Shown one piece after another: positions 1-18,200 of a stretch of 37,906 nt of DNA; position 1 is the first letter of the stretch, and every line of letters begins with the position of its first letter. The DNA comes from an uncultured archaeon (GTDB taxonomy: Archaea > Aenigmatarchaeota > Aenigmatarchaeia > QMZP01 > JAFGSV01), in NCBI GenBank assembly GCA_964442905.1, contig CAYUBD010000002.1, positions 1 through 37,906 on the forward strand. The letters are read 5' to 3'. Under the pieces are notes generated by a model. That model had not been told where the DNA came from. It searched no databases and saw only the letters and a program-made list of their open reading frames with translations. The translations under genes were made by a program, and so were the position numbers.

Positions 1-2649
1 AGCCCGAAGTTGTCCTCCGCGTACACAACTATCGTGTAGTTGCCCCTCACGGTAGTATTGCCCCACGCTCCAGGATAGAACTCCTGGTATATGTAGGGAT
101 CAGTTCCTCCTATGTAAGTCATATTTCTCTGGTCAGTCTGACCTCCCGGCCTGGTGACATTGAGCATAGTGAAGTTTATGCCCGCTATCCCTGCCTGGTC
201 CGTCACAAAGACCCGTATCTCAGTCGTGTTGAGCTGCGGTAAAATGGAAGGAATCGTGTATATCTCTATCAGGGGCATCACAAACGGCGTAAGCAGTATG
301 CTTATGTTCATGCTTCCGGGCTCACCCAGATAGGCGGTTATATTGTAACTGGCGTTGTAGAATACAAGGGGGTCATCCGTGATGTTGTAATACATCGTTA
401 TAACTGTGCCTGTCTGGTTCTCAAGCTGGAAATTGAGCACGTCCGGCCATGTTTGGTTGTTCTCGTTCGTGCTTGTGGCCGCGGGTGTTATGTCGAACGA
501 CATGTTCACATTGCCCGTGTTGTTGACCGTTATGTTGCAGGCGATGCTGTATTCAGGCGATTCGGGATGCTCGCAGGTACCGGGATTGACAGTCCATGTC
601 CTTGTTTCCGGGACGGTTATGTTGAAGTTTATGGTCTTGAAGCCGGAATTGTTGGTGGTGACATTAACATAGCCGAGGTAAGTACCGTTTGGGTAACTCA
701 GTGGTATGCTTCCCGTTATGTTGACTGTTATTATCTGTCCCGCATAGACAGTGCCCCCCTGCGTTTCTGTGACATTGGGAACTGCCTGGAGATTGAAATT
801 CTGGAAATTGCCGAACTCGTCACCTATTGCTATGCTCACGTTGAGAACCGGGTCGTTGCCCGTTGAATTGAGGGTGAAATTGGTTATGACTCCAGATGTG
901 TCATGGACGAGGCTTCCTGAAATCCAGTCCTCGGGTATGGTAAGGTTTACGTTGGAAAGCACTGTTATGTTTACCGTGCTCGTGTTGTGCCAGATCCCTA
1001 TTGCAGGGTTATACCATTCAACCGTAACGTTCAGTGTGTAGTTTCCCGAGGGCGTTCCGTTTGATACCGCTATGTCAAATGCACCCGAGCAGTTGCCGTC
1101 CGGGAGCATGTCGCCGCAGCTATAGACAGTGTTATTGGTGGTGTTTATGAGCGGGTCTGAGAAAGTCAGTGTCACATTAATGTTGTATCCTGTAACGTTT
1201 CCTGAGTTGGTCGTGTTGAAGCTGAGTGTGAAGCTTTGATTGTTATAATACGTTATATTGTCTGCAGTGAAATTATTGGGGGATATATCTAGCGTGACAT
1301 TGGTCCCTGAAACCGTTACATTCAGTTCAAGCTCCTCGTAGCCGTCATTTCCGCTTGTAACGTTGAGTATCCCGTTATAGAATCCGGTTGAGTAACCGCC
1401 CGCAACCAAAAGCTGAACTTCCACGTCGCTCGAATTGCCTGCCGGGAGGCTTGTAAAGTTTTTGGGAACGAATGTGAACGTGAACTCGTCCGGGAAACCT
1501 GTTGCATTGAATTCGACGTTTGTCAGGGGTGCATTACCGAAGGACCTCACGGTCATGTTTCCTATGTTGTTCTGAACGCCAGGCGCAACGAAACCTGTGA
1601 TATTGTTCTCAAGAACGTCAAGGATGTACGTCGGGTTTACAGTCACGTTCATGGCAGTCTGGTTCTCTTCGTATGATGTGTCCTTGTTGGTCCAGTTCAC
1701 CGTGGCATTGATCGTGAAATTCGCAGACGCCGTGGCAGCAAGCACGGTTATGTTGAAGTCTATTCTGCATGTCTTGGATATCGGTATATCGGGTTTGCCT
1801 TCACCGTCATCACAAAAAAGCGAAGTCCCGTTTGATGTCATATTCACGGGAATCTCTATGCCTATCGAGGCGTTGTAGGCTGTCCCGTTTGCCACGTTTG
1901 TGGCGTTTACCGTGAGTATGAAGCTTTCGTTGTCCAGCCACGTCACGTTGTTTATGTCATAGCTGGTAGGTGTGACAACAATGTCTGCATCTGTCTGGGT
2001 CTCTTCCGCTGTAAAGTCGTAGATGTCAGAACCGTCATTGCCTTCCTTATCTGCGGTGCAGTTAAGTGTGAAAAGACCGAACCAACCGGGTGATGTGAAG
2101 TTTATCCAGTAGCTTCCGTTACCATAATCTGTTATGTTTTCTGAATCCACGTCAAAAAGTTTGGATGTGGTCTGATATACGGAACAGTTCACCTGTGCGT
2201 ACGGATGCCATGTATCCTGCCTGTAGTTCATTACATCCAGAGTGGCATTCATCAGCCTGCCGACATCACCGCCTGGGTTAAGTATGACCGCATCGACGAA
2301 AAGTGACTTTGTCAGAGTGAAATTTTTGGATGAAATGTTCATAATATCAAGGTACTGGTCGAAAAGGCAAGCAGTTGCCGTCCAGGTGCCAGTGTACTCT
2401 GTTGTCGTTATGTTGTAGTAGTTCGTGTATATGTAATCACTCGCGTTCTGGTCCCCGTGAGTTCCGTCGTCGTACATGGTTATGTTTATGTCATCTGAGG
2501 ATGCAGACGTTGCGTTGTTCAGGGTCACGTTTACATATTCAACAAGTCCGTAAGGGTCGTAAGTTACGTTAACCGTTAGTACAACAGTCTCGTTTCTGTT
2601 ATAGTAATCGTGGTCTGTTTCCGTGTATGAAAGCAGAGTCCTCTGTTCG
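1..2649 (-). other. CARDB/NEW3-like and Ig-like beta-sandwich arrays of gene 3 (approximate bounds)
   Basis: Example stretches: SLPAGNSSDVEVQLLVAGGYSTGFYNGILNVTSGNDGYEELELNVTV; NGTPSGNYTLNVTVEWYN; YPNGTYLGYVNVTTNNSGF. The terminal PLIEIYTIPS...VFVTDQAGIAGINFTMLNVTRPGG...RGNYTIVVYAEDNFG parallels domains in the giant's 8.9 to 12.6 kb region. Confidence 0.5.
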
Positions 2650-4247
2650 TATTCATAGTCCGATATTACCTGACCGCTCTTTACCGCATCCCTTACACCG
2701 AAGAATTCCGTCGTAGTGCCTCTACCCATATAAACAAGCGCCTTCTCTATGATAGATTCTCCGGATGGTATTGTTTTGGCATTGAGCTGGATGCCGACCC
2801 TTCCTCTCTGAACAGAGCTGTTCTTTGCGAAGAATTCCGGTGTGTTCTCATTGAGATTTATAAGACCCACAATTTCTGTGCCCTCGCCGAATCCTAAGAC
2901 CCATGAGAATGGATCTGTTTCATTCGAATCATACTGGTGTGGACCATCTGAACCGAGAGGTGCCCAGGTATTGTTCACATCGAAGGCCATTGAACCGGCT
3001 CCCGTGGAATTCCTGGTTATTGCATATCCGGCCAGGTTCGTGAAATTCTGCTCCATCTTTATGATACCGCCAGAGATTTCGGGGCCTGCAATGTTGTATA
3101 TGTAATACTTCTTGACCATCCGGCCTTCACCTGTCTTCTGGCTGACGTTACCGAAGATTATCTCATCACCTTCCTGTATTATGGTCATTCTGACGGGACC
3201 CTCAACTACACTGATATTCTCTCTCAGATCAAAGCTGAAGTTGTATGTTCCGTTTGAATATTCCATGTATTCACCTGTCCTGTTTGCTTCATTATTAATG
3301 ATGAAGAATGGCACATCCTGGTGAAACGTCACGTAATAAAGACCTGATGTGTTCTCGCTTCTGTTGGTATCTATGCGTAAGTCAAGCCTGCTGTTGTTCA
3401 CGTGTATCTCGTCTCCTGTGAACAAGTATGTAAGGTTTGTTGCATAATATGGGGGCGACTTAAGCCCGTTCTCCTCGGTGTCAAAATAAAGGTAGAACGT
3501 TCTGACTGTGCTGCTCCCTGTCGTGCCGTTCAATATGAATATCTCAGTTCCTATGGCATTGTTGGCGGCATCGTACGTATGCAGGTCGGTGTCGAACTGG
3601 CTTGGAAGTTCATGCATAACGCCGCCAGTCTGGTTGTATTCAAACAGCCTCGTGGAATTATCATCGAATGTTCCCGTATCACCCAGCTGCCTCATAACAT
3701 CCGTGAAGTTTATGTCTCTTTCTATGGGCCAGTTTGTGACATCATAATCACCGTTCTCTATTTCCAGCTTTATTCTGTATTCCCATGTATTGTTCCACCA
3801 TTCGTATCTGTAAATCCTGATGTAATCCGTCCCGTTGAGGTCACTGTCATAACCCATTGAAGAACCGTCGCAGAGCACGTTCCAGCTGTAGTTGCCGATG
3901 TCGGCGAAGCTTCCCGTGTGCTCGTAAAGATTGGACGTGCCGTTATAGGACATGCCTGCCGGGCCTGTCCACGAGCCGCTTAAGTTGAACGTTATGTTGC
4001 AGTAGACCCCGCCGCCCGATATGGGAGCACCTGTCGAGCTGTCCGAGAAGTTTGCATAGAAAATCACATCCTTCTCTATGAACGGTGTAATGGAACCGCC
4101 CCCGGTGTCGGCTGAACTCCATATCCCCAGTTCCGAGTTGGTCCCGGAGACGAAGAAGTAATAGCCACTGATTCCGCTTTCGAGAGCTAATGCTGCCGCT
4201 AAGGAAGCAACTATCAGTAGTCCTGTTAACAATCTTGTGCTCAACAT
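1..4247 (-). CDS. Second large secreted, sequon-rich surface protein, 3'-truncated by the window edge (1,415 complete codons visible). It has a signal peptide, an N-terminal globular region and CARDB/NEW3-like beta-sandwich arrays.
   Basis: ATG at 4247..4245, 1 nt after the TAA of the upstream gene. I translated this frame by hand down to position 3 without meeting a stop. It is absent from the ORF track because it has no in-window stop. The N-terminus MLSTRLLTGLLIVASLAAALALESG looks like a signal peptide. The composition (NxT/S, Y, D/E, few K/R) matches the giant ectodomain. Confidence 0.85.
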   Translation of the reverse strand, partial: MLSTRLLTGLLIVASLAAALALESGISGYYFFVSGTNSELGIWSSADTGGGSITPFIEKDVIFYANFSDSSTGAPISGGGVYCNITFNLSGSWTGPAGMSYNGTSNLYEHTGSFADIGNYSWNVLCDGSSMGYDSDLNGTDYIRIYRYEWWNNTWEYRIKLEIENGDYDVTNWPIERDINFTDVMRQLGDTGTFDDNSTRLFEYNQTGGVMHELPSQFDTDLHTYDAANNAIGTEIFILNGTTGSSTVRTFYLYFDTEENGLKSPPYYATNLTYLFTGDEIHVNNSRLDLRIDTNRSENTSGLYYVTFHQDVPFFIINNEANRTGEYMEYSNGTYNFSFDLRENISVVEGPVRMTIIQEGDEIIFGNVSQKTGEGRMVKKYYIYNIAGPEISGGIIKMEQNFTNLAGYAITRNSTGAGSMAFDVNNTWAPLGSDGPHQYDSNETDPFSWVLGFGEGTEIVGLINLNENTPEFFAKNSSVQRGRVGIQLNAKTIPSGESIIEKALVYMGRGTTTEFFGVRDAVKSGQVISDYEYEQRTLLSYTETDHDYYNRNETVVLTVNVTYDPYGLVEYVNVTLNNATSASSDDINITMYDDGTHGDQNASDYIYTNYYNITTTEYTGTWTATACLFDQYLDIMNISSKNFTLTKSLFVDAVILNPGGDVGRLMNATLDVMNYRQDTWHPYAQVNCSVYQTTSKLFDVDSENITDYGNGSYWINFTSPGWFGLFTLNCTADKEGNDGSDIYDFTAEETQTDADIVVTPTSYDINNVTWLDNESFILTVNATNVANGTAYNASIGIEIPVNMTSNGTSLFCDDGEGKPDIPISKTCRIDFNITVLAATASANFTINATVNWTNKDTSYEENQTAMNVTVNPTYILDVLENNITGFVAPGVQNNIGNMTVRSFGNAPLTNVEFNATGFPDEFTFTFVPKNFTSLPAGNSSDVEVQLLVAGGYSTGFYNGILNVTSGNDGYEELELNVTVSGTNVTLDISPNNFTADNITYYNNQSFTLSFNTTNSGNVTGYNINVTLTFSDPLINTTNNTVYSCGDMLPDGNCSGAFDIAVSNGTPSGNYTLNVTVEWYNPAIGIWHNTSTVNITVLSNVNLTIPEDWISGSLVHDTSGVITNFTLNSTGNDPVLNVSIAIGDEFGNFQNFNLQAVPNVTETQGGTVYAGQIITVNITGSIPLSYPNGTYLGYVNVTTNNSGFKTINFNITVPETRTWTVNPGTCEHPESPEYSIACNITVNNTGNVNMSFDITPAATSTNENNQTWPDVLNFQLENQTGTVITMYYNITDDPLVFYNASYNITAYLGEPGSMNISILLTPFVMPLIEIYTIPSILPQLNTTEIRVFVTDQAGIAGINFTMLNVTRPGGQTDQRNMTYIGGTDPYIYQEFYPGAWGNTTVRGNYTIVVYAEDNFG
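2650..4172 (-). other. N-terminal globular region of gene 3, about 500 aa and unlike the giant's modules (approximate bounds)
   Basis: It contains RIYRYEWWNNTWEYRIKLEIENGDYDVTNWPIERDINFTD...FDDNSTRLFEYNQTGGVMHELPSQFD. This is loosely reminiscent of DUF2341- or LamG-type jelly rolls (W-x-YR ... D-x-s-x-R-x-x-E ... P-x-Q). I cannot confirm that by eye. Confidence 0.3.
4173..4247 (-). other. Predicted signal peptide of gene 3
   Basis: MLSTRLLTGLLIVASLAAALALESG has a basic residue, a hydrophobic core and an A-L-A-type site. Confidence 0.65.
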
Positions 4248-4256
4248 CTTATCCTT
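4245..4256 (-). promoter_or_regulatory. Stop/start coupling junction (AAGGA TAA G ATG) between gene 2 and gene 3
   Basis: The minus strand reads AAA AAA GGA TAA g ATG TTG AGC. The TAA ends at 4249 and the ATG begins at 4247. A weak AGGA lies 4 nt upstream of the ATG. This is consistent with translational coupling. Confidence 0.5.
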
Positions 4257-6280: not shown

Positions 6281-9200
6281 CTACATGCTTTTCATCCTCG
6301 TTTTGACGGATTCCATGTAGCTCTCTGCCATGGTGAACAGACCCTGCTTGAGCTTGTCAAGAGCAAGGTTGAGTTCGACCTCGACGTCCCCCGTGTCTGT
6401 CCCCTTGGTCTTCAACGCCTCAAACTGCTTCTTCAGCGCGTCAGCGTCCTTGCTTATCTTCACGTATTTGTCGAGCTCTTCGGCAGTCAGCCTCTTGGTG
6501 TCGTGAAGCAGCGGCCTGAATGAAACGAACCACGGCTTACCGTTGTTGTACGCCGCATTCTGCATCAGGCCCGTACCCGTGACAAGCTTCGTAATCTTCG
6601 AGGCGTAGTCAGGACCATACTTGGTCTTGACCCTGTTTATGTCACCCTCATACTTCGACCTTAGCTGTATCTCCGTGGATATGTTTGCCCTGATTGCACC
6701 ACGGAAGTCCATAAGGACCTGCGATATCATGAATATGCCGATGCCCCACTTACGGAACTCCCTGCACGCCCTTTCAAGGACCACATAACCACCCTTGCCG
6801 CCGTACTTCGGCAGCAGCCTGTGGACCTCATCGAATATTATCATCATCCTCATCTCCCTTGCCTCCGGCAGCCTCATCTCGAACAGGCTCTCCACTGTCC
6901 TTCTCACGAAGGTGTCCATGTCCTTGTTCGGAAGCTTTTCAGTGACAAGGACTGTCATCTCACCCTTCCTTTCCATTATATCCTTCCATGGAGGAACGAA
7001 ATCTGATGACTCAACGACCATTATGTTGACCTTGAAACCTCTGGCGTCATCTGGCTTCATGCCGAACTGTGGGTACAGGTCAAGCATCGCCGAATCCTTG
7101 CATGCCCTCATGAATCCTGTCCACTGTGCAGTCGGGTCTATGACGACTATCGGAACGCCTCTCTTAAGGAGGTCTTCCGAACAGACCTGTGCAGACACGG
7201 ACTTGCCGGCGCCCGTTGAACCTGCTGCTATGCTGTGCGTGGTAAGGTCGTCAAGGGTCATGTACGCCTTCATATCCGTTTCCGCTATCTTACCAACGAG
7301 CAGCGACCTGTCTCCGGCCTTCGGCAGCTTGTTGACATCCATCGGGAATATGTATCTGGACTTGGACTTTTTCTTCTTCCTGAAGTCTGTGTAGAACCTC
7401 ATGCCGAAATAGTATCCAGGTATAATAGCGAACAGCAATGCGTACGTGATCCAGCTGCTGAACAGTGCCTGTAACATCTTGAGAGGCGGAGCTATGTACA
7501 GCACATCGAAAGAGTCTATTGCGAAGGCCTGCTTCCCACCGCTCCAGTAAGTGACATTTAACTCAAGTGAGTATCTTCCTATGGGCGTGTCCTCGGGCAC
7601 GTATATGCTCCTCTTGAACGTCCTGACGTTCTCCATTCCGAGTGTCTCCTGCTCCCTGAGCACTATCTTCTCTGTGTCCAGATGCCTCATCTCATATGTG
7701 ACGACTATGTCATCTATTTTGGATGTTTCTCCCATATTCAGCAGGGTTACCTCAAGGGAAAGGTTCGTTCCGGGTTCTACTGTCTTGGACAATGCCTTGA
7801 CCTTCACGTCAAGCAGCGGCTCCTTCGGCTTCTGAACCTTGACGGTTATCGGAGTTACATGCGTTATGTTTCTGCCTCTTATACTGGTTATTATGTCTCC
7901 CGTGTAGATGCCTTCCATGGTGCTCGGAAGCGTAAAGACCTTTATCTTGATGGTTCCGGTTGAACTGCCCCTTATGTCGATGCTCGGCTTCTCTATCATC
8001 ACGAGTTCCCATGCGTTGCCCTCGACTTTAACATCGGCAGTTATAGTTCCCGGAAGGTTGTTGTCTATGTCTATGCTGTGTATCTCATGCTCGCCTGGCC
8101 TGAGAGTCACGAATATCAGCCTTGAGTCTATCTTGACAGGTATCCTCGGTGCAGATGGCGCGGATATAGCTCCGGCTCCGCCACCTCCTCCTCCCCCGCC
8201 GCCTCTCTCGGGGGGTGGCTGAGGCTCGGCCGGCTCGCAGTCCTGCGGGCAGTTCGCATTGGATTCGCCGTAATCGGTTTCGCATTCATCGTTTCCGCAT
8301 ATGTATTCAGCGACAGCGTAACCGCCGTCAAGACTTGTCAGGAATGCCGATATGGTCTTATCATGGATGCTCACGTTAGCATTGGCCAGCCTCGTCCAGT
8401 CATCGCTGCAACCGACCCATGGTGTCCACGAGTCGCAATAGTATATACCAAGCAGATTTGTACTTGAAATTTCACTTTCATATGACGAGTAGTTGAATGT
8501 GATTGTCACGTTGTCAAATTCCAGGTCAACCGTCGTGTTTTCATCAACCGTTATGTTGTCATTCGCCTCGAATGTTCTCGCCTCGAACAGTCCTCTGGTG
8601 TTGTAGCCGACAAGGCCCATATCCTTTATCAGCCCGAACAGGAATGGGTCATGGACATGTGTCTGTATGTCTGCGCCACGCATGTCAATGGTCTCGTTCC
8701 ACACATTCATCAGTATGTTATATATGCCGGCATCTATGGTCCTGTTGTAGTAGCCCACGCCGTCTGTGCTGAAGTTGAAGTACCATTCGGCGTCCGTGTA
8801 GAAGAGGCTGAAGTCAACATCCAGTGGTGACTGTGCCGGCAGTTCTTCCTGATCATTAGCTATGCCATGGAAATATACCAGAAGTGAAACAAGGAATGAC
8901 TTCTGGCTGGTGTTGTAGTTGCCGGACATGTCGTAAGCAACAGCATCTATCACATAGGTACCCTTCTCTGAAGTGTTTGTGAACTGGCCGAGGAACGTAT
9001 ATGTGTCCCCGGACCTGCTCATGTAGTTCATGGTCAGATTCTCCGTGACGTTATGGTGTGTTACCGTGACCATGATTTTACTTGTATTGACACCACCAGC
9101 ATCGGTCACATACAGGTGTATGTCGGCAGTCGTGTTGGTGGATACCTTTGAGAAAACATCTATGACGATGTCCGGTGGTGTCGTGTCCTCATATATGACT

Positions 9201-12200
9201 GATTTGTATTCGGTGTCCGACAGGAACAGGCTCGTGTTCGTGCCGTTGATTGTGTAATTCGCCGATACCTTCAGGTCATATGCCCTTCCGAGAGGCAGGT
9301 CTGGCGCGCTGAAATTGAGAATCCAGTGTCCTTCATCGGAAGCGTTTATGCCGTATTTCAGGTATGCGTCATACGTGGCGTTTGCCAGCTGCCCTGTCGA
9401 ATTCATGATTGTGAGGTTTATTGTCTGGTTTCCCGAAATGTTGAAGTCGGCGCCAGCGGAAACCGCATCCACTGTGGCATTGGTGCCGTTAATCACTGAC
9501 TGGTTGTCCGCCACCTGGACACCGTTAACCGTGAGGTTGTAGTATATCACTGTGTCGTTGAGATTGACAAGGGTTATGTTGAAATACGCCATGCTTCCGT
9601 TTCCTGTGACTTCTTCCGTGTGGTTGAAGCCTGTGTCATTTGAAGCGCTGTGTATGAGTCCGCCGGTGTAGTTCTTTATCAGGTGGATGAATGTCGGTGT
9701 CGCATTGACCCAGTATTCGTCAGTGCCGTCTGAGAGCGTGGCATTCCATACAACGCTTTCATTGGACGTTACCGCATACCTTCCGTAGGAAAGGTTGACC
9801 CTTGAAATGATGGTGTCGTTCTCTGTTATGTTTACGAATGGCTGTGCCTCCGTGGGTTCGAGTATTTCAACGAAGTACGGATGCACCGTAAGCCTTAGCT
9901 CAGTTTCCTTCGTTATTTCAGTTCCGCCGCTGTTGTTGTAGGTCCTGTAATATGCTGTCAGGGTTGTCGGGTCATAGATTACGGGTGCGGTGTATTCCAT
10001 GCTTATCTCAACAGGCGTTCCCAGATATACGGGCATTGTTCCTGTCTGTGACGCATTGAAGTAATCGCCGTCACCCGGCATGGGCGATATCCAGCTGTCA
10101 ACTACTGTCGGGTTGACGTTGCCGTCGTTGTTCAGTGTTATGGTTCCCAGGCTTCCGGAGGTCCCCTGCATGGCTTCCTTCTCTAAAAGACCGGGCGTCT
10201 GGGTCCATGAAAGGTTGGTAGGTATCTTGACGAAGATATCTATGATATCGAATATGCCTCCGTCAGCTGAAATTTCCAGAATGCCTGAATAAGTACCTGA
10301 GGGGGTTTCCGGGTCATTCGTGTTGATTTCCACGGTTATGTTTTCCGTATCTCCTGGTTCAATCGCGCCGACTATTTGCGGTACAAAGTTGGAACTGAAA
10401 TTATCACATACATAACCTGAAACGCATGATGTTGTCACGTTTGTTACATTTATGTTTCCGATGGACCTTACTCCCAGTGTCGCATTCCCATAAGTTATGT
10501 TGACTATCCCGACGTACACCGTTATATTTCCAGTCGTGGCTTCCAGTGAAGGATAAGGCACCACTTCTATCGTGACCGTTGTCGTGCTGTTGTCTGTCGT
10601 GTTGTCAATGTTAGTCCAGTCCGCCGTGAAGTTCAGTGTATAATTGCCTGCGAGTGTTCCCTCCGGTACGGTTATGCTTATGTTTTCTGTTTCTGTCCAG
10701 TTCTTATACATTATGCTGTAATTGAAGCTGTCCTGCGATACGTACCATCCACCATAAGGAGTCACATTGACTGTGACGTTATATGCCCTTGCGTATCCGG
10801 CTGTCGTGTTGAAGGTGATCGGGATTGTCGTGCTGTTGTATATGCTGACGTTCTCGGCATAGAAGACTGTCGCATTGGGGACGACTATTACCGTCGTGTT
10901 GGCAACTGCCGTTCCGTTTATATTGACGCATCTTTGGACACCTTCCGTGTCGTTGGCACAAATCTCGAAATTATACAGGCCGGTCGTGTTTGTGGAATAG
11001 TTTATCCAGTAGTATGACTGGTTGTTGCTCATCGGTATTATTGTCCAGTTGCCGTCGGGCTTTGTCACGTTGACCCATGCGAAGTTTACGTCGGTATTGT
11101 CATATATGGTGGCGCTGACAGTCGTGTTCTCGAAATTTATCTCAAAGAATTCAGGCTCCGCTTTGGCATCCTCTATGTATGGTGCCGGGTTCGTTATGTT
11201 CATGGTGAATGTCACTGACTTGGTAGGCGGTACTGCGTCTGTGCTCGTGTCTGTCTCCCACGCTGTTATGACTATCTCTCCGTCGACCTGCCCCGGACTC
11301 ACGGTGCCCGGAAGTTCATAGCCTATATACATCACACCTTCAACCAGCTTCCCTACGTCGACCGGGAAGAATCCGAGAAGTGTGCCGTTAAGCCTTACAT
11401 ACGGTGTCGCCGCCCCGGTTCTGTAGAACGTGAGTGTCAGCTTCACGTTTCCTGTATTGGTGAAGTTTATTATGCCCAGAGTCCCGTTGGTGGACAGCGG
11501 CGTAAGCACTGTGCCGAATGTGTCAGGAACGGCTGCCCAGCTCCTGTTGGTCTCGACTGTAACATTCAGAAGGGCTTCATCGTAAGCGGCATTGCTCGCA
11601 TTGGCCCTGAGCTTTGTCCAGTAGTCTCCTGGTGCCTGTCCATTGGGCACCGTCACTGTCACATCGACCGTGAAGTTGTCACCGTCCTGAACGTAACCCT
11701 GGTAATCAGGCGTCAGGTCAAGCACGCATAGCGGACATCCGGTAAAGAAGTTCCCCCCCACATCGAATACGTATACGTCTATCAATGGGATGTTGCCTGA
11801 CGACACTGCCGTCATGTTGCCTACGTGGGTCTTGAGCCCGTGCTGAACGCTCTTTTCGACCGAATCCTCTATTATTTCCAGGACTGGGTTGGATGACACA
11901 TATACATTCGTTATATCGACTGTTGAGTTGTACGTGTTATCTGGGTCTCTCCATGTGGCGTTCGCGTTTATCTGGATAAGCCCGGGCGGTGTGTCTGTCT
12001 TTATCACCACCGTAACGTTCCACAGGCATGATTCACCAGCTGCCATGTTTCCGCAGGAGATATTTTCCTCTATAGCTAATGTTGTTATGTTCATGTATTC
12101 AACGTTTCCGCTTGAATCGTAGACTGAAAGAACAACTTCATATGCATTCGGAGGCCCGAAGTTCGTGAAGTTTATGGAGAGGTTGAACCTGTGGTCATCC

Positions 12201-15200
12201 GTCTGTGTGATGCCGTCTGCTATCTCAGACTCCGGCGTAGTGTTAATCCAGCCTAGTGTATTTCCCCACACAGTGAAGTTGTAGTATTCTGAAACGTTCA
12301 TGTTGTGCTCGTCGAAGGGGTCCCATGCATGCACCCTTACGAGATACAGTCCGCCTACCGGCGGGGTGTACTGAATCCTGTAATCGTCCTGGCTTATGTT
12401 CGTCATATCAGCATAGAACCATGTACCGTTGGGGTATGTGATGTTGGCCTTGGCTTCGAGCACCTGGTAGTTGTCCGTGACTGTGGCAGTTATATTGGTG
12501 TAGTTCAGGTTGGCCTCTATGCTTGAGTTCGGTATGACGCTGACATTGTATACCTGGGGCGGTTCCGTGTCCTCTATGTAGACCAATGCAGTCTCCTCGT
12601 CCTGTGAAACGTTGTAAAGCAGTGTCTGATTGTCGGTTATGTTACACTTGAACCAGATGTCATCCTTGTTCTCAGGTGCCCATGTATGTGTTATATATCC
12701 GGTGCTGTTTGTGTAATGGGTACCGTTGTAAGTGTATGAAGACGCTCCATCGTAACGGTACCATACATACACCGGGTATTTATCTATACCCATGCCGCCG
12801 TCGTCATCTTCCACGTAACATGTGAAGTTGAAGGGCTCTGGATAGGGCTTGCTGCTAAGGTGCAGTGAAGGTTCTATGTAGACGCTGGCCGCACCTGTTA
12901 CGATTATCGTGACATTCTCCTCGGCGTCATCGTAATAAGACTTCTCTGCAATGGCTGTTATGTTCTGCATGCCCGTACTCATGGGGTCAGGGTCTATGTA
13001 TGAGGCCAAACCTGATGTCCCGACTACAGTCAGGGGCTGCAGGTCCTCATCGTACCACGTGACCGTAAGGCTGTGTGAATAATTGCCGTTCTCATCCCAT
13101 ACTGTCGCATTCGCAATAAACCAGTCGACTGTCTTTGATACAAGCGTTCCGTTTTGGGGCGATGTTATGTTGATATATAGTATGCCCCTGACCTCGACTG
13201 ATGTGGTATTGGTGGATGATGGCTCGTTGGTCGACGGCTTAGTCGCGTTTATGTATATTACGTAATCCTGCGGGTATGTATCATCTTCCGGATTGAAGAG
13301 GAACCAGCAGATGCCCACACTGTCTGTGGTGCAATTGCCCAGGTATCCGGTAGAGTTGTAGAAATGCACTGTCGCATCTTCAGCATACCCGGGAATCAGG
13401 TTCGCATCCCTGACCGTCACCTTTATATGCGTCCTGTTTGGACTGAACGAGTCGTTCCTGTAAATCCATGTGTAGTTCTGCCAGATGGGATACTGTATCC
13501 ACAGCGGTCTGTGGATTATAATATTGGTCTGGTTCATCGCAAATGATGCATTGTAATACAGCGTAGTATTATCAGTTATGTTGCACGAGATGTTGTGGCC
13601 GCCGGCCGTGTCGTATTGGGTATCCCAGACCCATGTCGTGGAGCCATTGGCGTCCGTGCTGTTTGTGTGATTGTAGACACTGTCCTTGTAGAATGTCACG
13701 ACGTAGCCTTCGAGGTCTATGCCGGTGTTAAGGTCAGCGACGTGGCACGTTACGGTTACCGCAGTCCCCGCGGAAAAGTCCGTGTTGTTTTCAGGTAATA
13801 TGGCATCTACCGTACTCCAGCCGTAAACCAGGACGTCTGTCATGTTCGTATTCTCGTCGTAATACTGCCTTGTCGCGTTAAGATGCAGGACCTCTGGCCC
13901 AAGCTCGTAGTTGTATGGCACGTTCCATGTCGTATTGTATCCTGCAGCTATCTGATACCAGCTCTCATTATACCACACGACGCTGGTGTCGTTAATGTAT
14001 GAATCGCAGTCATCTGTCACAGTTGCCGTCAGGCTAACAGCTGTATTCCTGTTTATTATTGAACCGTTTGCCGGCACCTGCGGATTGACATACAGTTGCC
14101 CGTATACCGTGATATCCTCATCCGTAGTGGTATATTCGGTCTCATAGCATACGTCATCCGTCTCTCCCAGCCATTTCTGAATACCGGCAATCGAATCGCA
14201 CGTTGCATTGTACTTAACCTGGCAGTAGCCGCCTGTCGTGGTATTGCATGGAATGCTTATCAGTCCGGGAAGGTAGAAAAGATATGCATTGTATGTCGCA
14301 TTGGATATCTGTCCTGAAGCATCCATTATCGTAAGGTTTATGCTCTGGTATCCGGGAACCGTGAATGAAACCCCTGATGAAACTGCATCGGTCGTTGAGT
14401 TGACACCATCAGCAACGGACTGGCTGTCTGCTATCTGCGCGCCGTTGACTGTGAGGTTGTAGTACATCGTCGTTCCGTTGAGGTTTTCAACGGTTATGTT
14501 GAAGTATGTGACCCCGCCCGTGACTCCAATCTCACTTGTGTAATTGACTCCATGGCTCAAAGCAATGTATTCAAGATGCAGATTGTAGGTAGCATTGGAT
14601 ATATTTCCGCCTGTCTCCATTATTGTAAGGTTTATGCTCTGGTATCCGGGAGCAGTGACTGGGACACCCGAAGATACCGCATCTGTCGTTGAGTTTACAC
14701 CGTCTGCAACGGACTGGTTGCCTGCTATCTGTACACCGTTGACAGTCAGGTTGTAGTATATCGTCGTTCCGTTGAGGTTTTCAACAGTTATGTTGAAGTA
14801 TTCCGGGTATCCTGAAGCGCTTATGTATTCCGTATGGTTGTAACCTGCATCCGGTGAAGCCGTGTGCAGGACCTTTGTCGTGTTGCTCATGCTGTGCACT
14901 GTTTCTGTCACATACTCGTTTCCGTACTGCTTTATCCAGACCTTTCCAGAAGCGTCCACGGGGTATTGATATAAAGAGCTGTCATCATCGCTTATCCTGA
15001 AGGTGATGTTAGCCTCGTTGTCACCCAGCCTTCTTAATGTATCGCTGCTGTTCAGATCGTCGATTGTGTTTGTTACGTTGTCTGTCTGGAATATCAGTTC
15101 CAAAAGGCCGGAGTAGTATTCAAGATAGACAAGATACGTCGCATTGGATATCTGTCCTGAAGCATCCATTATCGTAAGGTTTATGCTCTGGTCACCTGGA

Positions 15201-18200
15201 AGGATGAATGATGTCAGACCGCTTACATCCAACGTGACATCGGTTCCGTCGGAAACCGAACGGTTCGAGTCAACAAGCACACCATTGACGGTGAGGTTGT
15301 AGTACAATGTGGTCCCGTTGCTGTTGTGGAATGTTATGTTGAAATAGTTCATGATGCCTGAGCCTTCTTCCGTTATCGTTTCGGTGTAGTTAAGGCCAGC
15401 ATCGCCAACGGACGCGTTGTGTATGAGTTCTATCGGCTGGAAAATTCCGGTTTCGTCAGTGAAGTCCGAATCGTCAGTGGTATTGAACTTGAAGTAAGCA
15501 AGGGGACCGTCGAGGTAATCCTGGCACATGAATGTTATGTCCATGTGTCCCGAGAAGTACTGCGGGAAGGTATTGGAGCACACGGGCGTACCGGTACTGG
15601 CGAGCGTCCTTCCATGGTATGCCTTAAGTGTCCACGAATCGGTGTCGAAGCTCTTCAGTATGGTTATGTTGTTGAAGTTCTGGTCCTGGTCATCTATGCA
15701 CATGTAGAAATCGTATTCCTCTCCCCACCCGCCTACGTAATGGTCTATTGCCGGATTGTAAAGGTCTGGTATATTTCCCAGGTAGAATGCGTTCGGCTTC
15801 AGCGTGACGTTGGTTTCATAATAATTTTCGCTTATCGTCTGCCTTGCATCATACCATCCTTTGGTGTACGAGCCCAGAGTCTGCCAGGAGCAGTTATACC
15901 AGCCACCGCCTTCCGTTTCATCCGTGCATGTGTACCAGCAGTAAGCCCCGATGCATGCATTTCTCTTGGTAGTTATGGTAAAGCTGTCCGCATTCAGTAC
16001 AGGGTAACCGCACTCTGTCACGTAGGTGCTTATGTTAACCCTTCCGCCCCTCTCGTATGATTCTCCGTCCGGTGCGACTATCTCCACGGCCATGTTGGAA
16101 TTAAGTATCCACGTCTCCACGGTCGAGTTCGTATCGAAATAATAGCTGTCATTGATTATACCTCCAAGCCAGTCATGTTCACCAACGACATAGAATGGTG
16201 TGTCCCCGCACTCGGGATTGAAGCTTATGTTAAGGTATCCGTTATCCGTGCTTAGGTCCCATCCGTCGTTGTAGTTGCTGCCGTTGTGTGTTGACCATAT
16301 CGTTCCGCTTCCTGATGGATCTACGGCCATGTCCCTGTCTGTATCCCATACGAGCAGACTGAAGTTTATCTCCTGCCCGCCGAATCTCCATACCTCGTTG
16401 CTCGGAGCCTCGTAGCCATCGACAACGATGATGGTAACGTTGTCCTTCTCTATCGTGAAGTTTATGGCCTGGGTCTGGTCGCTGTTTCCACACGCATCAT
16501 GGTCGCATTCGCTTTCGGTTGCAGTGAACCTGTATTCCCACACAACCTGCTGGTCCTGGAAAAGTGTCGGAACGTAAAGGGTCATGTTGACCGTGACATT
16601 TACCGGGGATGTCAGGACAGTGGTGTTCCTGGTGTCCCAGTCACCGGGTCCCTCACCGTATAGTCTTATCTGCAGGTTGACAGTGACATTGTCAAGGTCT
16701 TCATCAGTGACATTTACGTGGAAGCTCCACGTCTCTCCCCAGCCGCCTACGTCACCGCCCTGCTCTGAATACAATATCGGGTCTGAAAGCGCCGGGCTGG
16801 TAACTACATAGAAATGATCTGTGTAGTAGGCCGTTCCGTTGTAATAATAGTCTCTTGAGGCCGTTGATGTTGTGTTATACCATCTTGCACTGAGGATGGA
16901 AGTATTTATCTGGTAAAGGTATGTGCCGGTGCCATCTGCTATGGTGTCGTACGTATAGTTTTTCCCGCTCTCATGATTGAGTATAATTGTTATATTGCTG
17001 TATCCCAGCTGTTCGCAGTCATCATAATCGGGTGCGTGACCTGCTATGGTCACATTCTCTCCACGCTTGTAGAAGTACGGATCTAACGCCTCAAGTGTGT
17101 GGTTGAACTCCCCCATAATCAGTACTGTGAAGTTGTTTCCGCCAATCGTTACATTGGCATCCTTGTAGCACTGGTCGCTGTAGGTCCCGCCTTTCCAGTA
17201 CTGTGGTCCTACGGCATAATGCTGACACCAAGGATCGAACTCCAGTATCAGGTACCCCGAAGAGTTTGTAGTGTTCTCGTTGTAATCATGATATGTGTAG
17301 TTCTCACCGTCGGCAGTGACCCAGAATATCCCGTTAACACCTGAAACCACTGACATATTTTCCCGATCCGTGTCGTTTATCCTCACTATAAGCGTTGCGG
17401 TGTTCGTCAGCGCCCTGCTTACGTTCGTGTCATGGCCGTAAACATATGAGATGACGACGTCATCCTTCGTTATGTTGAGTCCGGTCTGGTTGCTGGTGTT
17501 GAACAGGTTAGTGCCGTCGTCTATCTCGAACAGATACCTCGTGTAATTGCTTATGTCTCCGCATGTGAAATCCGTGACCAGGATTGAGCAGTTGCCGACA
17601 CCACCGTAGACCGTTGTGTTGTCCTTCTTCAGCCAGGCCGAGCCGTTGTACACCCAGAGCCTGCATGACACGTTGTCATACTGCGTGTCGTTTATGAATA
17701 CAGTGTAGTTGAAGTCCTCGCCCCAGCCTCCGTCATCGTCGAATGCGACGCTGAATTCGGTAGCCGTTGGTGGTGTGTTGTTCAGGTATGTCCAGTTCAC
17801 CAGTATGCTGTTGTTTTCGTTCCAAAGAGTGCCGTTGTCCGAGAACATCCTGATGCTCCAGTTCCCGCCTATGTGGAAAGATGTATTCCATGAGCAGTTG
17901 TACCAGCCGTCGCCCTCGGCATTGAGCTGCTGGCAGTCTTCCCAGTCATCCTCAGGGGAGCCGAACTGCAATATCACGCTCGTTGCATTCACCAGGCCTT
18001 CATTCGAACAGTCCGTGGTTATGTTGAACCTTACCGTTAATATGTCTCCGACCTGTACGATTGTTCCCTCCGCGGGCTGTTCGATGTTATTGTAAAGCTG
18101 GCCGAATATATACGCATAAACATAAGATCCAGGGAATTCCGTATCCTCGTAGCAGGCATCACCATAAGCACCTGCCCACCAGCCCTGAAGGCCGACAGAG

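What the first reader, a model, noticed from the sequence alone, without database searches (positions are those of the whole stretch)
6284..8299. Giant ectodomain of about 10,000 aa fused through one TM helix to a cytoplasmic HerA/FtsK-type ATPase
What the sequence shows:
- There is no stop between the ectodomain and the ATPase.
- The order is Cys knot, Pro/Gly hinge, two sequon-poor domains, the TM helix ALFSSWITYALLFAIIPGYYFGM, the basic cluster RKKKKSKSR, and then the ATPase.
- The ATPase carries Walker A GSTGAGKS, Walker B MMIIFDEVH and REFRKWGIGIFMISQ.

Established knowledge: FtsK-HerA superfamily ATPases (FtsK, HerA, VirB4/TrbE, archaeal CedB) are ring translocases, usually hexameric, that pump DNA or secretion substrates.

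Inference:
- I know of no described adhesin or S-layer-type giant protein with such an ATPase as its cytoplasmic tail.
- A hexameric ring would bundle six giant glycosylated chains into one fibre and couple ATP hydrolysis to it.
- Possible roles are self-export or extrusion, force or signal transmission, or DNA/cargo transfer at cell-cell contacts.
Basis: partly seen in the sequence, partly recalled or inferred. Interest (0 to 1): 0.92.

Follow-up and report, generated by a model that had tools for sequence, protein, structure and literature searches.

The report
Giant SPEARE-type archaeal surface protein
This is a real cell-surface protein of more than 10,500 residues from a tiny symbiotic (DPANN) archaeon, with a HerA-type ring ATPase as its cytoplasmic tail, but the design is already published as the 'SPEARE' giant proteins, so it is a new member of a known family whose function is still unproven.

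Summary
One uninterrupted minus-strand frame runs from the window's right edge (37906) to a stop at 6281, at least 10,541 aa with the N-terminus missing. It ends in a Cys knot, a Pro/Gly hinge, two beta-sandwich domains, one TM helix, a basic cluster, a P-loop ATPase and a helical tip. Pfam, PDB profile search and Foldseek all place the ATPase in the HerA clade of the FtsK-HerA superfamily.

The novelty claim is wrong. This is the SPEARE family of DPANN archaea (Hamm 2019; Reva 2023). The last 621 residues align end to end with the C-terminus of the published 9,409-aa SVXNc_0300 (34% identity, E 9e-124).

The fusion is not an artefact. In 72 of 80 related genome loci the frame upstream of the module stays open to the edge of the available DNA. 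The closest relative is collinear over 2,728 aa. Half of the 150 best library representatives exceed 2,000 aa.

Points that refine the literature:
- The ATPase is HerA-clade rather than VirB4/TraG.
- A conserved cassette follows it: a coiled-coil protein, a ~2,000-aa second surface protein and a MinD/ParA ATPase.
- No type IV secretion partners were seen.

The function (host attachment plus ATP-driven translocation) remains an inference.

The parts
6281..37906 (-). Giant ORF of at least 10,541 aa plus stop. It is incomplete at its 5' end because the frame is open to the window edge.
   Evidence: It is collinear at 68% identity with the 2,728 aa available in the closest relative, L002.
8312..37906 (-). 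Variable, heavily sequon-rich ectodomain made of beta-sandwich-type repeats.
   Evidence: 622 sequons against 183 +/- 12 in shuffles. The only Pfam hits are Big_7 and NPCBM_assoc; no LamG, protease or toxin domain was found.
8231..8311 (-). Cys knot (ICGNDECETDYGESNANCPQDCEP), conserved at the same place in relatives.
   Evidence: The same motif sits before the hinge in P0001, P0017 and P0041.
8168..8230 (-). Pro/Gly-rich hinge.
   Evidence: pLDDT is below 50 in the model. A comparable P/G linker follows the Cys-rich domain in the short homologues.
7502..8143 (-). Two conserved membrane-proximal beta-sandwich domains, the start of the conserved module.
   Evidence: AlphaFold model strands at residues 32-132 and 140-243, pLDDT 80-90. 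Conserved in 28 aligned relatives. Foldseek finds tandem Ig-like folds.
7400..7468 (-). Single transmembrane helix, followed by the basic cluster at 7355-7381.
   Evidence: The model shows a long helix at residues 248-290. Sequons are absent on the C-terminal side.
6485..7354 (-). HerA-clade P-loop ATPase core: Walker A 7199-7222, Walker B 6821-6847, REFRKWG...SQ 6719-6763.
   Evidence: Pfam DUF87, HerA_C and AAA_10 above cut-off. The PDB profile search finds only HerA-type chains, best 4d2i at 4.3e-11. Foldseek top hit is HerA 4d2i at 1.8e-13. The Walker A Lys, Walker B Asp-Glu and three Arg are invariant in 28 relatives.
6284..6484 (-). C-terminal three-helix (coiled-coil) tip.
   Evidence: Model helices at 583-608, 614-628 and 632-648. 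It aligns with the coiled-coil tip of SVXNc_0300, which is described in PMC10266531.
4249..6249 (-). Second gene of the operon: a 666-aa charged coiled-coil protein with a SHOCT-like (Pfam 'short C-terminal domain') C-terminal motif. It starts 31 nt after the giant gene's stop and has a GGAGGT upstream.
   Evidence: A homologue lies downstream of the module gene in 70 of 74 loci that have enough downstream sequence; across all 80 loci, 69 start within 1 kb on the same strand.
1..4247 (-). Third gene: a second large surface protein (at least 1,415 aa in the window) with a signal peptide. It runs off the left edge. Its ATG is 1 nt after the stop of gene 2.
   Evidence: Full-length relatives are about 1,950-2,100 aa with a C-terminal TM helix and a short cytoplasmic tail.
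25571..26665 (-). Copy 2 of a near-identical 1,095-nt internal duplication. Copy 1 is at 31805-32899.
   Evidence: 2 mismatches in 1,095 nt, offset 6,234 nt. Partly seen.

Best explanation
SHOWN
- The window carries most of a SPEARE-family gene from a DPANN archaeon. Its closest relatives are Candidatus Aenigmatarchaeota.
- The product is a type I membrane protein.
- Its hypervariable, heavily N-glycosylated ectodomain of about 9,900 or more residues is built from beta-sandwich repeats.
- That ectodomain is joined through a conserved Cys knot and a Pro/Gly hinge to a conserved 620-residue module.
- The module consists of two Ig-like domains, one TM helix, a catalytically intact HerA-clade ATPase and a helical tip.
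- The gene heads a conserved operon: a cytoplasmic coiled-coil protein, then a second surface protein of about 2,000 aa. In relatives a 222-aa protein and a MinD/ParA-type ATPase follow.

INFERRED (probability about 0.4-0.45)
- The ATPase tails assemble into a ring under the membrane, as HerA-type ATPases do.
- This clusters several giant adhesin chains at a host-contact site.
- ATP hydrolysis is then used to move a polymer (DNA or an unfolded protein) across the symbiont membrane at that contact.
- The coiled-coil and MinD/ParA partners would organise or position the assembly.
- On this reading it is a HerA-based apparatus in its own right, not a canonical type IV secretion system.

The confidence figure of 0.75 is for identity plus architecture. 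The mechanistic part alone is about 0.4.
For: Identity:
- The 649-aa tail aligns over 621 residues with the C-terminus of the published giant protein SVXNc_0300 (34% identity, E 9e-124). The locus was fetched.
- The papers describe the same architecture.

The fusion is real:
- There is no stop in the frame.
- 72 of 80 related loci keep the frame open to the edge of the available DNA. This holds for 37 of the 40 loci with a full 10 kb upstream, so those proteins are at least 3,940 aa.
- L002 is collinear over 2,728 aa at 68% identity.
- 77 of the 150 best representatives are at least 2,000 aa long (up to 7,878 aa), and most carry the module at the C-terminal end.

ATPase clade and integrity.

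Topology: the sequon distribution and the model.

Cassette. Tight gene spacing.

Cellular rather than viral: no relative among the viral contigs.

A family member is synthesised as protein (proteomics in PMC6642349).
Against: - No experiment addresses function in any member.
- Each chain has a single TM helix, and the operon has no conserved polytopic membrane protein, so there is no obvious channel for cargo.
- No VirB6, VirB3, VirD4 or relaxase-like genes lie in the window. None were recognised among the recurrent gene clusters within 10 kb downstream in the 80 loci.
- Hexamer formation was not modelled.
- In Ca. Nanohaloarchaeum antarcticus, peptides of the ectodomain and of the TM+cytoplasmic part ran in different size fractions. 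The two parts may therefore be separated after synthesis.
- This ectodomain lacks the LamG, protease and toxin domains of the original SPEARE description.
- The N-terminus is outside the window.
Confidence: 0.75

Rival explanations
1. Artefact. Two separate genes (a giant adhesin and a stand-alone TM-ATPase) were fused by a lost stop codon, a frameshift or a misassembly.
For: Stand-alone copies of the whole module exist. L064 and L065 encode ~730-aa proteins with their own signal peptide. P0145 follows the giant gene in Ca. Nanohalococcus occultus SVXNc with a 4-nt overlap. The gene holds a 1.1-kb near-identical repeat that could confuse an assembler.
Against: The same continuous frame appears in 72 of 80 independent assemblies from several phyla. 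It also appears in two closed genomes of cultured organisms. The Cys knot and hinge junction is conserved. The module in the window has no signal peptide of its own. The internal repeat lies about 18 kb from the junction.
Confidence: 0.02
2. Canonical type IV secretion component. The tail is a VirB4/TraG ATPase and the giant protein is a 'straw' through which effectors are injected into the host (the proposal of Reva et al. 2023).
For: This is the published interpretation. There are weak Pfam hits to T4SS-DNA_transf (20 of 28 members), TrwB_AAD_bind (6 of 28) and FtsK_SpoIIIE (21 of 28), and weak NCBIfam hits to TraC, TraD and CedD.
Against: The VirB4 N-terminal domain PF03135 is absent in all 28 aligned members. 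The profile search of PDB returns only HerA-type chains at E <= 0.01, with no VirB4, TrwB or FtsK. The ATPase-type matches among the 50 listed Foldseek hits are all HerA; the other listed hits are beta-sandwich proteins. NCBIfam T4SS scores are 13-28 bits against cut-offs of 325-800. No other T4SS genes are in the window or were recognised within 10 kb downstream in relatives. Beta-sandwich repeat strings are not known to form conduits.
Confidence: 0.15
3. Anchor and positioning device without cargo. The ATPase ring, the coiled-coil partner and the MinD/ParA ATPase cluster, place or tension the giant adhesins at the host-contact pole, or signal contact inward. Nothing is pumped.
For: There is one TM helix per chain and no channel protein. 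The partners consistently found are a long cytoplasmic coiled-coil protein and a MinD/ParA-type positioning ATPase. SHOCT-like motifs are shared by the cytoplasmic ends of the coiled-coil protein and the second surface protein.
Against: Characterised HerA-type ATPases translocate nucleic acid through a ring (established knowledge; structures found). Strict conservation of the catalytic residues argues for a working motor. No precedent is known to me.
Confidence: 0.25
4. The original SPEARE model (Hamm et al. 2019). The cytoplasmic part is a type III restriction enzyme that degrades incoming host DNA, and the ectodomain carries protease and toxin domains for invasion.
For: The paper makes this proposal. 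A weak ResIII hit occurs in 20 of 28 members, and at E = 0.078 in the window's tail.
Against: ResIII is the helicase/ATPase subunit family, not a nuclease, and the hit is below its cut-off. No nuclease domain was found. DUF87 and HerA_C score better in all members. Reva et al. reached the same conclusion. No protease, LamG or toxin domain is in this ectodomain.
Confidence: 0.03

Closest known systems
SPEARE proteins of Nanohaloarchaeota (Ca. Nanohaloarchaeum antarcticus NAR1_1133, 5,998 aa; Ca. Nanopetramus SG9, 8,553 aa) - Hamm et al. 2019, PMC6642349
   Same: Very long extracytoplasmic part, a TM helix near the C-terminus and a conserved cytoplasmic P-loop portion. DPANN hosts, with relatives already noted in Aenigmarchaeota.
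   Different: This ectodomain has no LamG, protease or toxin-like domain detectable with Pfam. It is longer (at least 10,541 aa). The organism is an Aenigmatarchaeota-like archaeon, not a halophile. I could not fetch these two sequences for a direct comparison.
Giant surface proteins SVXNc_0300 (9,409 aa) and BNXNv_0298 (8,880 aa) - Reva et al. 2023, PMC10266531
   Same: The order is the same: Ig-like repeat ectodomain, TM helix, ATPase, coiled-coil tip. Direct alignment of the last 621 residues gives 34% identity, E 9e-124. A coiled-coil gene also lies downstream there.
   Different: In SVXNc the giant gene is followed by a stand-alone 623-aa copy of the module. In the window the next gene is the coiled-coil protein, followed by a second ~2,000-aa surface protein. 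The authors call the ATPase VirB4/TraG-like, whereas my tests place it with HerA.
HerA DNA translocase/helicase (e.g. Sulfolobus solfataricus HerA, PDB 4d2i; the HerA subunits of the bacterial anti-phage SIR2-HerA and DUF4297-HerA defence complexes)
   Same: Best sequence-profile and fold matches for the RecA-like core. Walker A/B and conserved arginines are present.
   Different: There is no N-terminal HAS barrel (the beta-barrel domain of true HerA); only about 45 residues separate the TM helix from the P-loop strand. There is no NurA, Mre11 or Rad50 neighbour, nor any defence partner. It is membrane-anchored with an ectodomain. NCBIfam HerA equivalog scores are 23-24 bits against 800-970.
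Membrane-anchored FtsK-family translocases that act with few or no partners: Streptomyces conjugation protein TraB, FtsK/SpoIIIE, and the EssC/EccC motor of type VII secretion (from my own knowledge)
   Same: A ring ATPase of the same superfamily, tethered to the membrane by N-terminal TM helices, that moves DNA or protein across or at a membrane.
   Different: Those proteins have several TM helices per chain and no giant ectodomain. The sequence relation is only at superfamily level (plasmid_TraB 13 bits; FtsK_SpoIIIE weak).
Halomucin of Haloquadratum walsbyi (about 9,000 aa) and other giant archaeal or bacterial adhesins
   Same: Giant repetitive extracellular protein (cited).
   Different: From my own knowledge, halomucin has no cytoplasmic ATPase tail; the papers read here cite it only for its size.

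Membership tests
SPEARE / giant membrane-anchored DPANN surface proteins | Most of a very long chain is extracytoplasmic and built of adhesion-type repeats. | tested here: met
   9,892-aa sequon-rich part with Big_7 and NPCBM_assoc hits.
SPEARE / giant membrane-anchored DPANN surface proteins | A single TM helix near the C-terminus, with the C-terminal region in the cytoplasm. | tested here: met
   TM helix at residues 10147-10169 of 10,541, a basic cluster after it, and only 1 sequon in the last 419 aa.
SPEARE / giant membrane-anchored DPANN surface proteins | The conserved intracellular portion is homologous to that of named members (P-loop ATPase plus coiled-coil tip). | tested here: met
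   34% identity over 621 aa, E 9e-124, against the C-terminus of SVXNc_0300. That protein is equated with the SPEARE proteins in PMC10266531.
SPEARE / giant membrane-anchored DPANN surface proteins | Encoded by DPANN archaea. | tested here: met
   Nearest loci are Ca. Aenigmatarchaeota MAGs (83% identity in the module). Of the 47 best loci whose record titles name a taxon, 45 name a DPANN lineage; the other 33 say only 'uncultured archaeon'. No viral relatives were found. The window's own organism is inferred from these relatives.
SPEARE / giant membrane-anchored DPANN surface proteins | Serine protease, laminin-G adhesion and toxin-like domains in the ectodomain (the origin of the acronym; disputed by Reva et al.). 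| tested here: not met
   Pfam scan of 9,892 aa finds only Big_7, NPCBM_assoc and a weak DUF7382 hit.
SPEARE / giant membrane-anchored DPANN surface proteins | N-terminal Sec signal peptide. | not testable with these tools
   The frame is open at the window edge, so the N-terminus is absent. L079, a complete 3,589-aa relative, has one.
FtsK-HerA superfamily of P-loop ATPases | Walker A, Walker B and conserved arginine/glutamine motifs, with profile matches above curated cut-offs. | tested here: met
   Pfam HerA_C, DUF87 and AAA_10 above gathering scores. DUF87 in 28 of 28 and HerA_C in 27 of 28 relatives. Invariant K343, D467, E468, R471, R490, R493 and Q504.
FtsK-HerA superfamily of P-loop ATPases | RecA-like fold of the HerA type. 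| tested here: met
   Model pLDDT 85.9. Foldseek top hits are HerA 4d2i, 9x1m and 8woc at E 1e-13 to 1e-10.
FtsK-HerA superfamily of P-loop ATPases | Hexameric ring assembly. | not testable with these tools
   Only monomer prediction was available.
HerA proper (the HerA-NurA end-resection helicase) | N-terminal HAS barrel, a NurA/Mre11/Rad50 gene neighbourhood, and an equivalog-level score. | tested here: not met
   Only a short hairpin lies between the TM helix and the P-loop. The neighbours are a coiled-coil protein and a surface protein. NCBIfam scores are 23-24 bits against 800-970.
VirB4/TraG-type type IV secretion ATPase | VirB4 N-terminal domain (PF03135), or best match to VirB4/VirD4 structures. 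| tested here: not met
   PF03135 is absent in 28 of 28 members. No VirB4, TrwB or VirD4 chain appears at E <= 0.01 in the PDB profile search. DotL is at E = 0.078 only.
VirB4/TraG-type type IV secretion ATPase | Co-located T4SS channel or coupling genes. | tested here: inconclusive
   None are in the window. None were recognised among the recurrent downstream clusters of the 80 loci. Several small membrane proteins of unknown family were not resolved, and upstream regions are occupied by the giant gene itself.
Ced DNA-import system ATPase | Equivalog-level match to the Ced ATPase. | tested here: not met
   NF053655 CedD scores 35 bits against a cut-off of 600, over a local 56-residue P-loop match only.

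The most novel reading that the evidence does not exclude
The SPEARE tail is not a stray T4SS part. On this reading it is the motor of a DPANN-wide apparatus of its own kind that has not been described. The apparatus would be a membrane-anchored HerA-clade ring that bundles giant adhesin chains. It would work with a conserved cytoplasmic coiled-coil protein, a second ~2,000-aa type I surface protein and a MinD/ParA ATPase. Together they would take up or deliver DNA or protein at the host contact. Most genomes would carry a giant cassette and a short paralogous cassette.
Probability: 0.3. Interest if true: 0.75.

Novelty: new member of a known kind. Interest (0 to 1): 0.3.

Why it matters
DPANN archaea are obligate symbionts with tiny genomes, yet they spend about 3% of their genome on a single gene of this family (3.37% for the 12,127-aa example in PMC8470020). 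How they attach to hosts and extract material from them is an open question.

This window adds a very long Aenigmatarchaeota member. The comparative work done here also sharpens the picture for the whole family:
- The giant fusion is the rule, not the exception.
- The motor is HerA-clade.
- It travels with a conserved coiled-coil, second-adhesin and MinD/ParA cassette rather than with type IV secretion genes.

That gives concrete partners and mutants to test in the cultured nanohaloarchaeal systems. The headline claim of an unprecedented architecture does not hold.

Tried and rejected
- Exact-sequence look-up of the window's coiled-coil protein, to recover the source contig and the missing ends: not on record.
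- Literature leads on DPANN attachment organelles and nanotubes gave no link to this gene. In the Microcaldus ARM-1 (DPANN symbiont) / Metallosphaera AS-7 (host) co-culture the nanotubes come from the host.
- The archaeal 'dark matter' and type IV pili papers mention only other HerA-like groups.
- Iyer et al. 2004 is not held in the library.
- The bacterial-type promoter/terminator scan around the junction gave counts no different from shuffles, and it is unsuited to archaea.
- Self-BLAST of the giant protein to map super-repeats returned only the self-hit. The duplication was instead found by exact-word diagonals.
- Viral origin is rejected: no relative in 2.9 million viral contigs.
- Separate translation of the module from an internal start is considered unlikely. 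The module has no signal peptide of its own, whereas the true stand-alone homologues do.
- The word-index protein database lists only fragments of 1,103 aa or less for this family. It therefore wrongly suggested at first that the family is typically 700-1,100 aa. ORF tracing in genome loci and the representative library corrected this.
Full report
**What is in the window.**
- The window holds three genes, all on the minus strand.
- One reading frame runs without a stop from the last base of the window (37906) to a TAG at 6281-6283.
- The ORF finder reported 10,499 aa from the first ATG. The frame is open upstream of that ATG, so the protein is at least 10,541 aa and its N-terminus lies outside the window.
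- A 666-aa, highly charged coiled-coil protein starts 31 nt downstream (6249-4249) and is preceded by GGAGGT.
- One nucleotide after its stop, a third gene begins (ATG at 4247). It has a clear signal peptide and runs off the left edge after 1,415 codons.
- This arrangement looks like an operon.

**Check of the observation.**
- The order is: Cys knot 8311-8231, Pro/Gly hinge 8230-8168, two domains, TM helix 7468-7400, basic cluster 7381-7355, Walker A 7222-7199, Walker B 6847-6821, REFRKWG...SQ 6763-6719.
- The ectodomain carries 622 N-x-S/T sequons (N-glycosylation sites) against 183 +/- 12 expected from shuffles.
- The two membrane-proximal domains carry 3 sequons and the 419 residues after the TM region carry 1. 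This fits an outside/inside topology.
- Pfam places the tail in HerA_C, DUF87 and AAA_10, all above their gathering scores.
- A single-sequence search and a 28-sequence profile search of PDB sequences return only HerA-type chains. The best is S. solfataricus HerA 4d2i at 4.3e-11.
- An AlphaFold model of the last 649 residues (mean pLDDT 85.9) shows two beta-sandwich domains, one long helix, a RecA-like core and a three-helix tip.
- The best Foldseek matches of that model are HerA hexamer structures.

**What it is.**
- A homologue search with the last 649 residues found 635 proteins, almost all from DPANN archaea. Alignments cover about 95% of the query, that is the two sandwich domains, the TM helix and the ATPase together.
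- Complete short members (~725 aa) have a signal peptide, a small Cys-rich domain, a P/G linker and then this module. Longer members carry the same 'ICGxxxCExxYGESxxxCPxDC' knot and hinge as the window.
- The database lengths were misleading. The 969-aa entry P0041 is in fact the end of an ORF of at least 3,079 aa that the gene caller had cut.
- A scan of one genome per species found 492 relatives.
- In 72 of the 80 best loci, the frame upstream of the module stays open to the edge of the available DNA. This includes 37 of the 40 loci with a full 10 kb upstream, so those proteins are at least 3,940 aa.
- Five of the eight that 'end' earlier lack a signal peptide and look like interrupted giants. 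Only L064, L065 (~730 aa) and L079 (3,589 aa) have true N-termini.
- An exhaustive profile search of 1.84 billion representatives gave 766 clusters at E <= 1e-30. Of the best 150, 77 are at least 2,000 aa (up to 7,878 aa), and most have the module at the C-terminal end.
- The closest relative (L002, an Aenigmatarchaeota MAG) is collinear with the window protein over all 2,728 available residues. Identity is 68% overall and 83% in the module.
- The fusion is therefore the normal state of a large family, not a lost stop codon.

**Comparison with the literature.**
- Hamm et al. 2019 (PMC6642349) described 'SPEARE' proteins of Nanohaloarchaeota, up to 8,553 aa.
  - They are mostly extracytoplasmic, with a TM helix near the C-terminus and a conserved cytoplasmic part.
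  - The authors read the cytoplasmic part as a type III restriction enzyme.
  - They noted relatives in Woesearchaeota, Aenigmarchaeota, Micrarchaeota and Altiarchaeales.
  - They showed by proteomics that the protein is made.
- Reva et al. 2023 (PMC10266531) described SVXNc_0300 (9,409 aa) and BNXNv_0298 (8,880 aa) as Ig-repeat ectodomain + TM + VirB4/TraG-like ATPase + coiled-coil tip. They re-annotated the SPEARE tails in the same way.
- I fetched the SVXNc locus and aligned the window's tail with the C-terminus of SVXNc_0300. The result is 34% identity over 621 residues, E 9e-124, spanning both sandwich domains, the TM helix, the ATPase and the tip.
- A 12,127-aa SPEARE has been reported in another DPANN lineage (PMC8470020).
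- The window protein is therefore a new, very long, Aenigmatarchaeota-type member of a published family.

**Where my results refine the published picture.**
1. The ATPase clade.
   - DUF87 hits 28 of 28 aligned relatives and HerA_C hits 27 of 28.
   - The VirB4 N-terminal domain PF03135 is absent from all of them.
   - A weak ResIII hit in 20 of 28 explains the original 'restriction endonuclease' label.
   - No VirB4, TrwB or FtsK structure is matched at E <= 0.01. NCBIfam T4SS and Ced models score 13-35 bits against cut-offs of 325-800.
   - It is also not HerA proper. There is no HAS barrel (the N-terminal beta-barrel of true HerA) between the TM helix and the P-loop, no NurA neighbour, and equivalog scores are far below threshold.
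   - The catalytic Lys, Asp-Glu and three arginines are invariant, so the motor is probably active.
2. The gene neighbourhood.
   - A homologue of the coiled-coil protein lies downstream of the module gene in 70 of 74 loci with enough sequence.
   - A homologue of the third gene (about 1,950-2,100 aa) is present in 30 of 51 loci with at least 9 kb downstream.
   - That third protein has a signal peptide, a C-terminal TM helix and a cytoplasmic tail. The tail carries the same SHOCT-like motif as the coiled-coil protein.
   - It is often followed by a 222-aa protein with no Pfam hit and by a MinD/ParA-type ATPase (27 loci).
   - No type IV secretion channel or coupling genes were recognised.
   - Some MAGs carry both a giant cassette and a short paralogous one: L032 with L064, and L022 with L065.
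3. The family has no relatives on viral contigs.

**How it most likely works.**
- Shown: the topology, the conserved module, an intact HerA-clade motor and the conserved partners.
- Inferred from what HerA-type ATPases do (ring translocases of nucleic acid): the tails form a ring beneath the membrane. This gathers several giant adhesin chains at a host contact. ATP is then used to move a polymer across the symbiont envelope, and the coiled-coil and MinD/ParA proteins organise the site.
- I put this at about 0.4-0.45.
- Three points argue against it. Each chain has a single TM helix, there is no conserved channel protein, and the proteomic data show ectodomain and tail in different size fractions.
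- The main rival, at about 0.25, is a clustering, positioning or mechanical role without cargo.
- The published 'T4SS straw' idea, at about 0.15, is weakened by the failed VirB4 membership tests.
- The restriction-enzyme idea (0.03) and the artefact explanation (0.02) are effectively excluded.
- Self-export of the ectodomain by a domain that is translated last is implausible.

**Verdict.**
- The feature is real and correctly described, but already known. It is a new member of a known kind, with interest of about 0.3.
- The residual value lies in the family-wide observations: giant fusion as the rule, HerA clade, and a conserved cassette with MinD/ParA. It also lies in the unsolved function.
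- The most novel reading not excluded is that this cassette is a distinct DPANN host-contact translocation apparatus (probability about 0.3).

Noticed in passing
window 37781-37906: The giant ORF's frame is open upstream of the first ATG, right to the window edge. The real protein is longer than 10,541 aa, and the start with any signal peptide is missing.
   Followed up: partly
window 31805-32899 and 25571-26665: A 1,095-nt segment occurs twice inside the gene with only 2 mismatches, 6,234 nt apart, while the flanks have diverged. It is either recent duplication or gene conversion within a ~2,078-aa super-repeat, or an assembly risk.
   Followed up: partly
window 1-4247 (-); L002:10090-16401: The third gene encodes a second large surface protein, about 2,100 aa in relatives. 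It has a signal peptide, NPCBM_assoc-type domains, a C-terminal TM helix and a cytoplasmic tail. It is conserved next to the SPEARE gene across DPANN phyla. I found no description of it in the papers read.
   Followed up: partly
window 4249-6249 (-); L002:8220-10082 and the tail of L002:10090-16401: A SHOCT-like motif (…ELSKAAYDKSRRLL… / …IISENAYNELRKKN…) ends both the cytoplasmic coiled-coil protein and the cytoplasmic tail of the second surface protein. A similar motif ends the 331-aa membrane protein of the short cassette in L001. This may be a shared docking element.
   Followed up: no
L002:17297-18070 and 26 other loci (cluster C1): A MinD/ParA-type ATPase of about 256 aa recurs a few genes downstream of the SPEARE gene, in both the giant and the short cassettes. 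In 10 loci a conserved 222-aa protein with no Pfam hit also occurs, directly upstream of it in L002.
   Followed up: partly
L064, L065, L001 versus L032, L022: The same MAGs hold a giant cassette and a short paralogous one. The short one has a ~730-aa module protein with its own signal peptide and Cys-rich domain, then a coiled-coil protein, a ~330-aa protein (signal peptide, CARDB-like domain, TM helix) and MinD.
   Followed up: partly
L082:1-11872 (Ca. Nanohalococcus occultus CP104395.1): The published giant gene SVXNc_0300 overlaps by 4 nt a stand-alone 623-aa copy of the whole module (two sandwich domains, TM helix, ATPase, tip). That copy is 36% identical to the window's module. The paper describes this neighbour as a VirB4/TraG ATPase with a PF03135 N-domain. 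The precomputed Pfam hits list DUF87, HerA_C, AAA_10 and ResIII instead.
   Followed up: partly
L001:51-9290; protein hits: Gene callers and the 90%-clustered protein database systematically truncate these genes. P0041 is annotated as 969 aa, but the ORF is at least 3,079 aa with a Ser/Thr-rich ~35-residue repeat ectodomain. No hit or 43 exceeds 1,103 aa, although genome loci show ORFs of more than 3,900 aa.
   Followed up: yes
L008, L042, L048, L053, L055: ORFs that appear to end within the locus start without a signal peptide in mid-domain sequence. This suggests giant genes interrupted by a stop or frameshift, through sequencing error, pseudogenisation or possibly programmed events.
   Followed up: no
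L071 (Heimdallarchaeota MAG, 3.5-kb contig), L075 (Halanaerobiaceae MAG, 3.9-kb contig), P0034: Family members binned into non-DPANN genomes sit on very short contigs. They are probably binning errors rather than lateral transfer.
   Followed up: no
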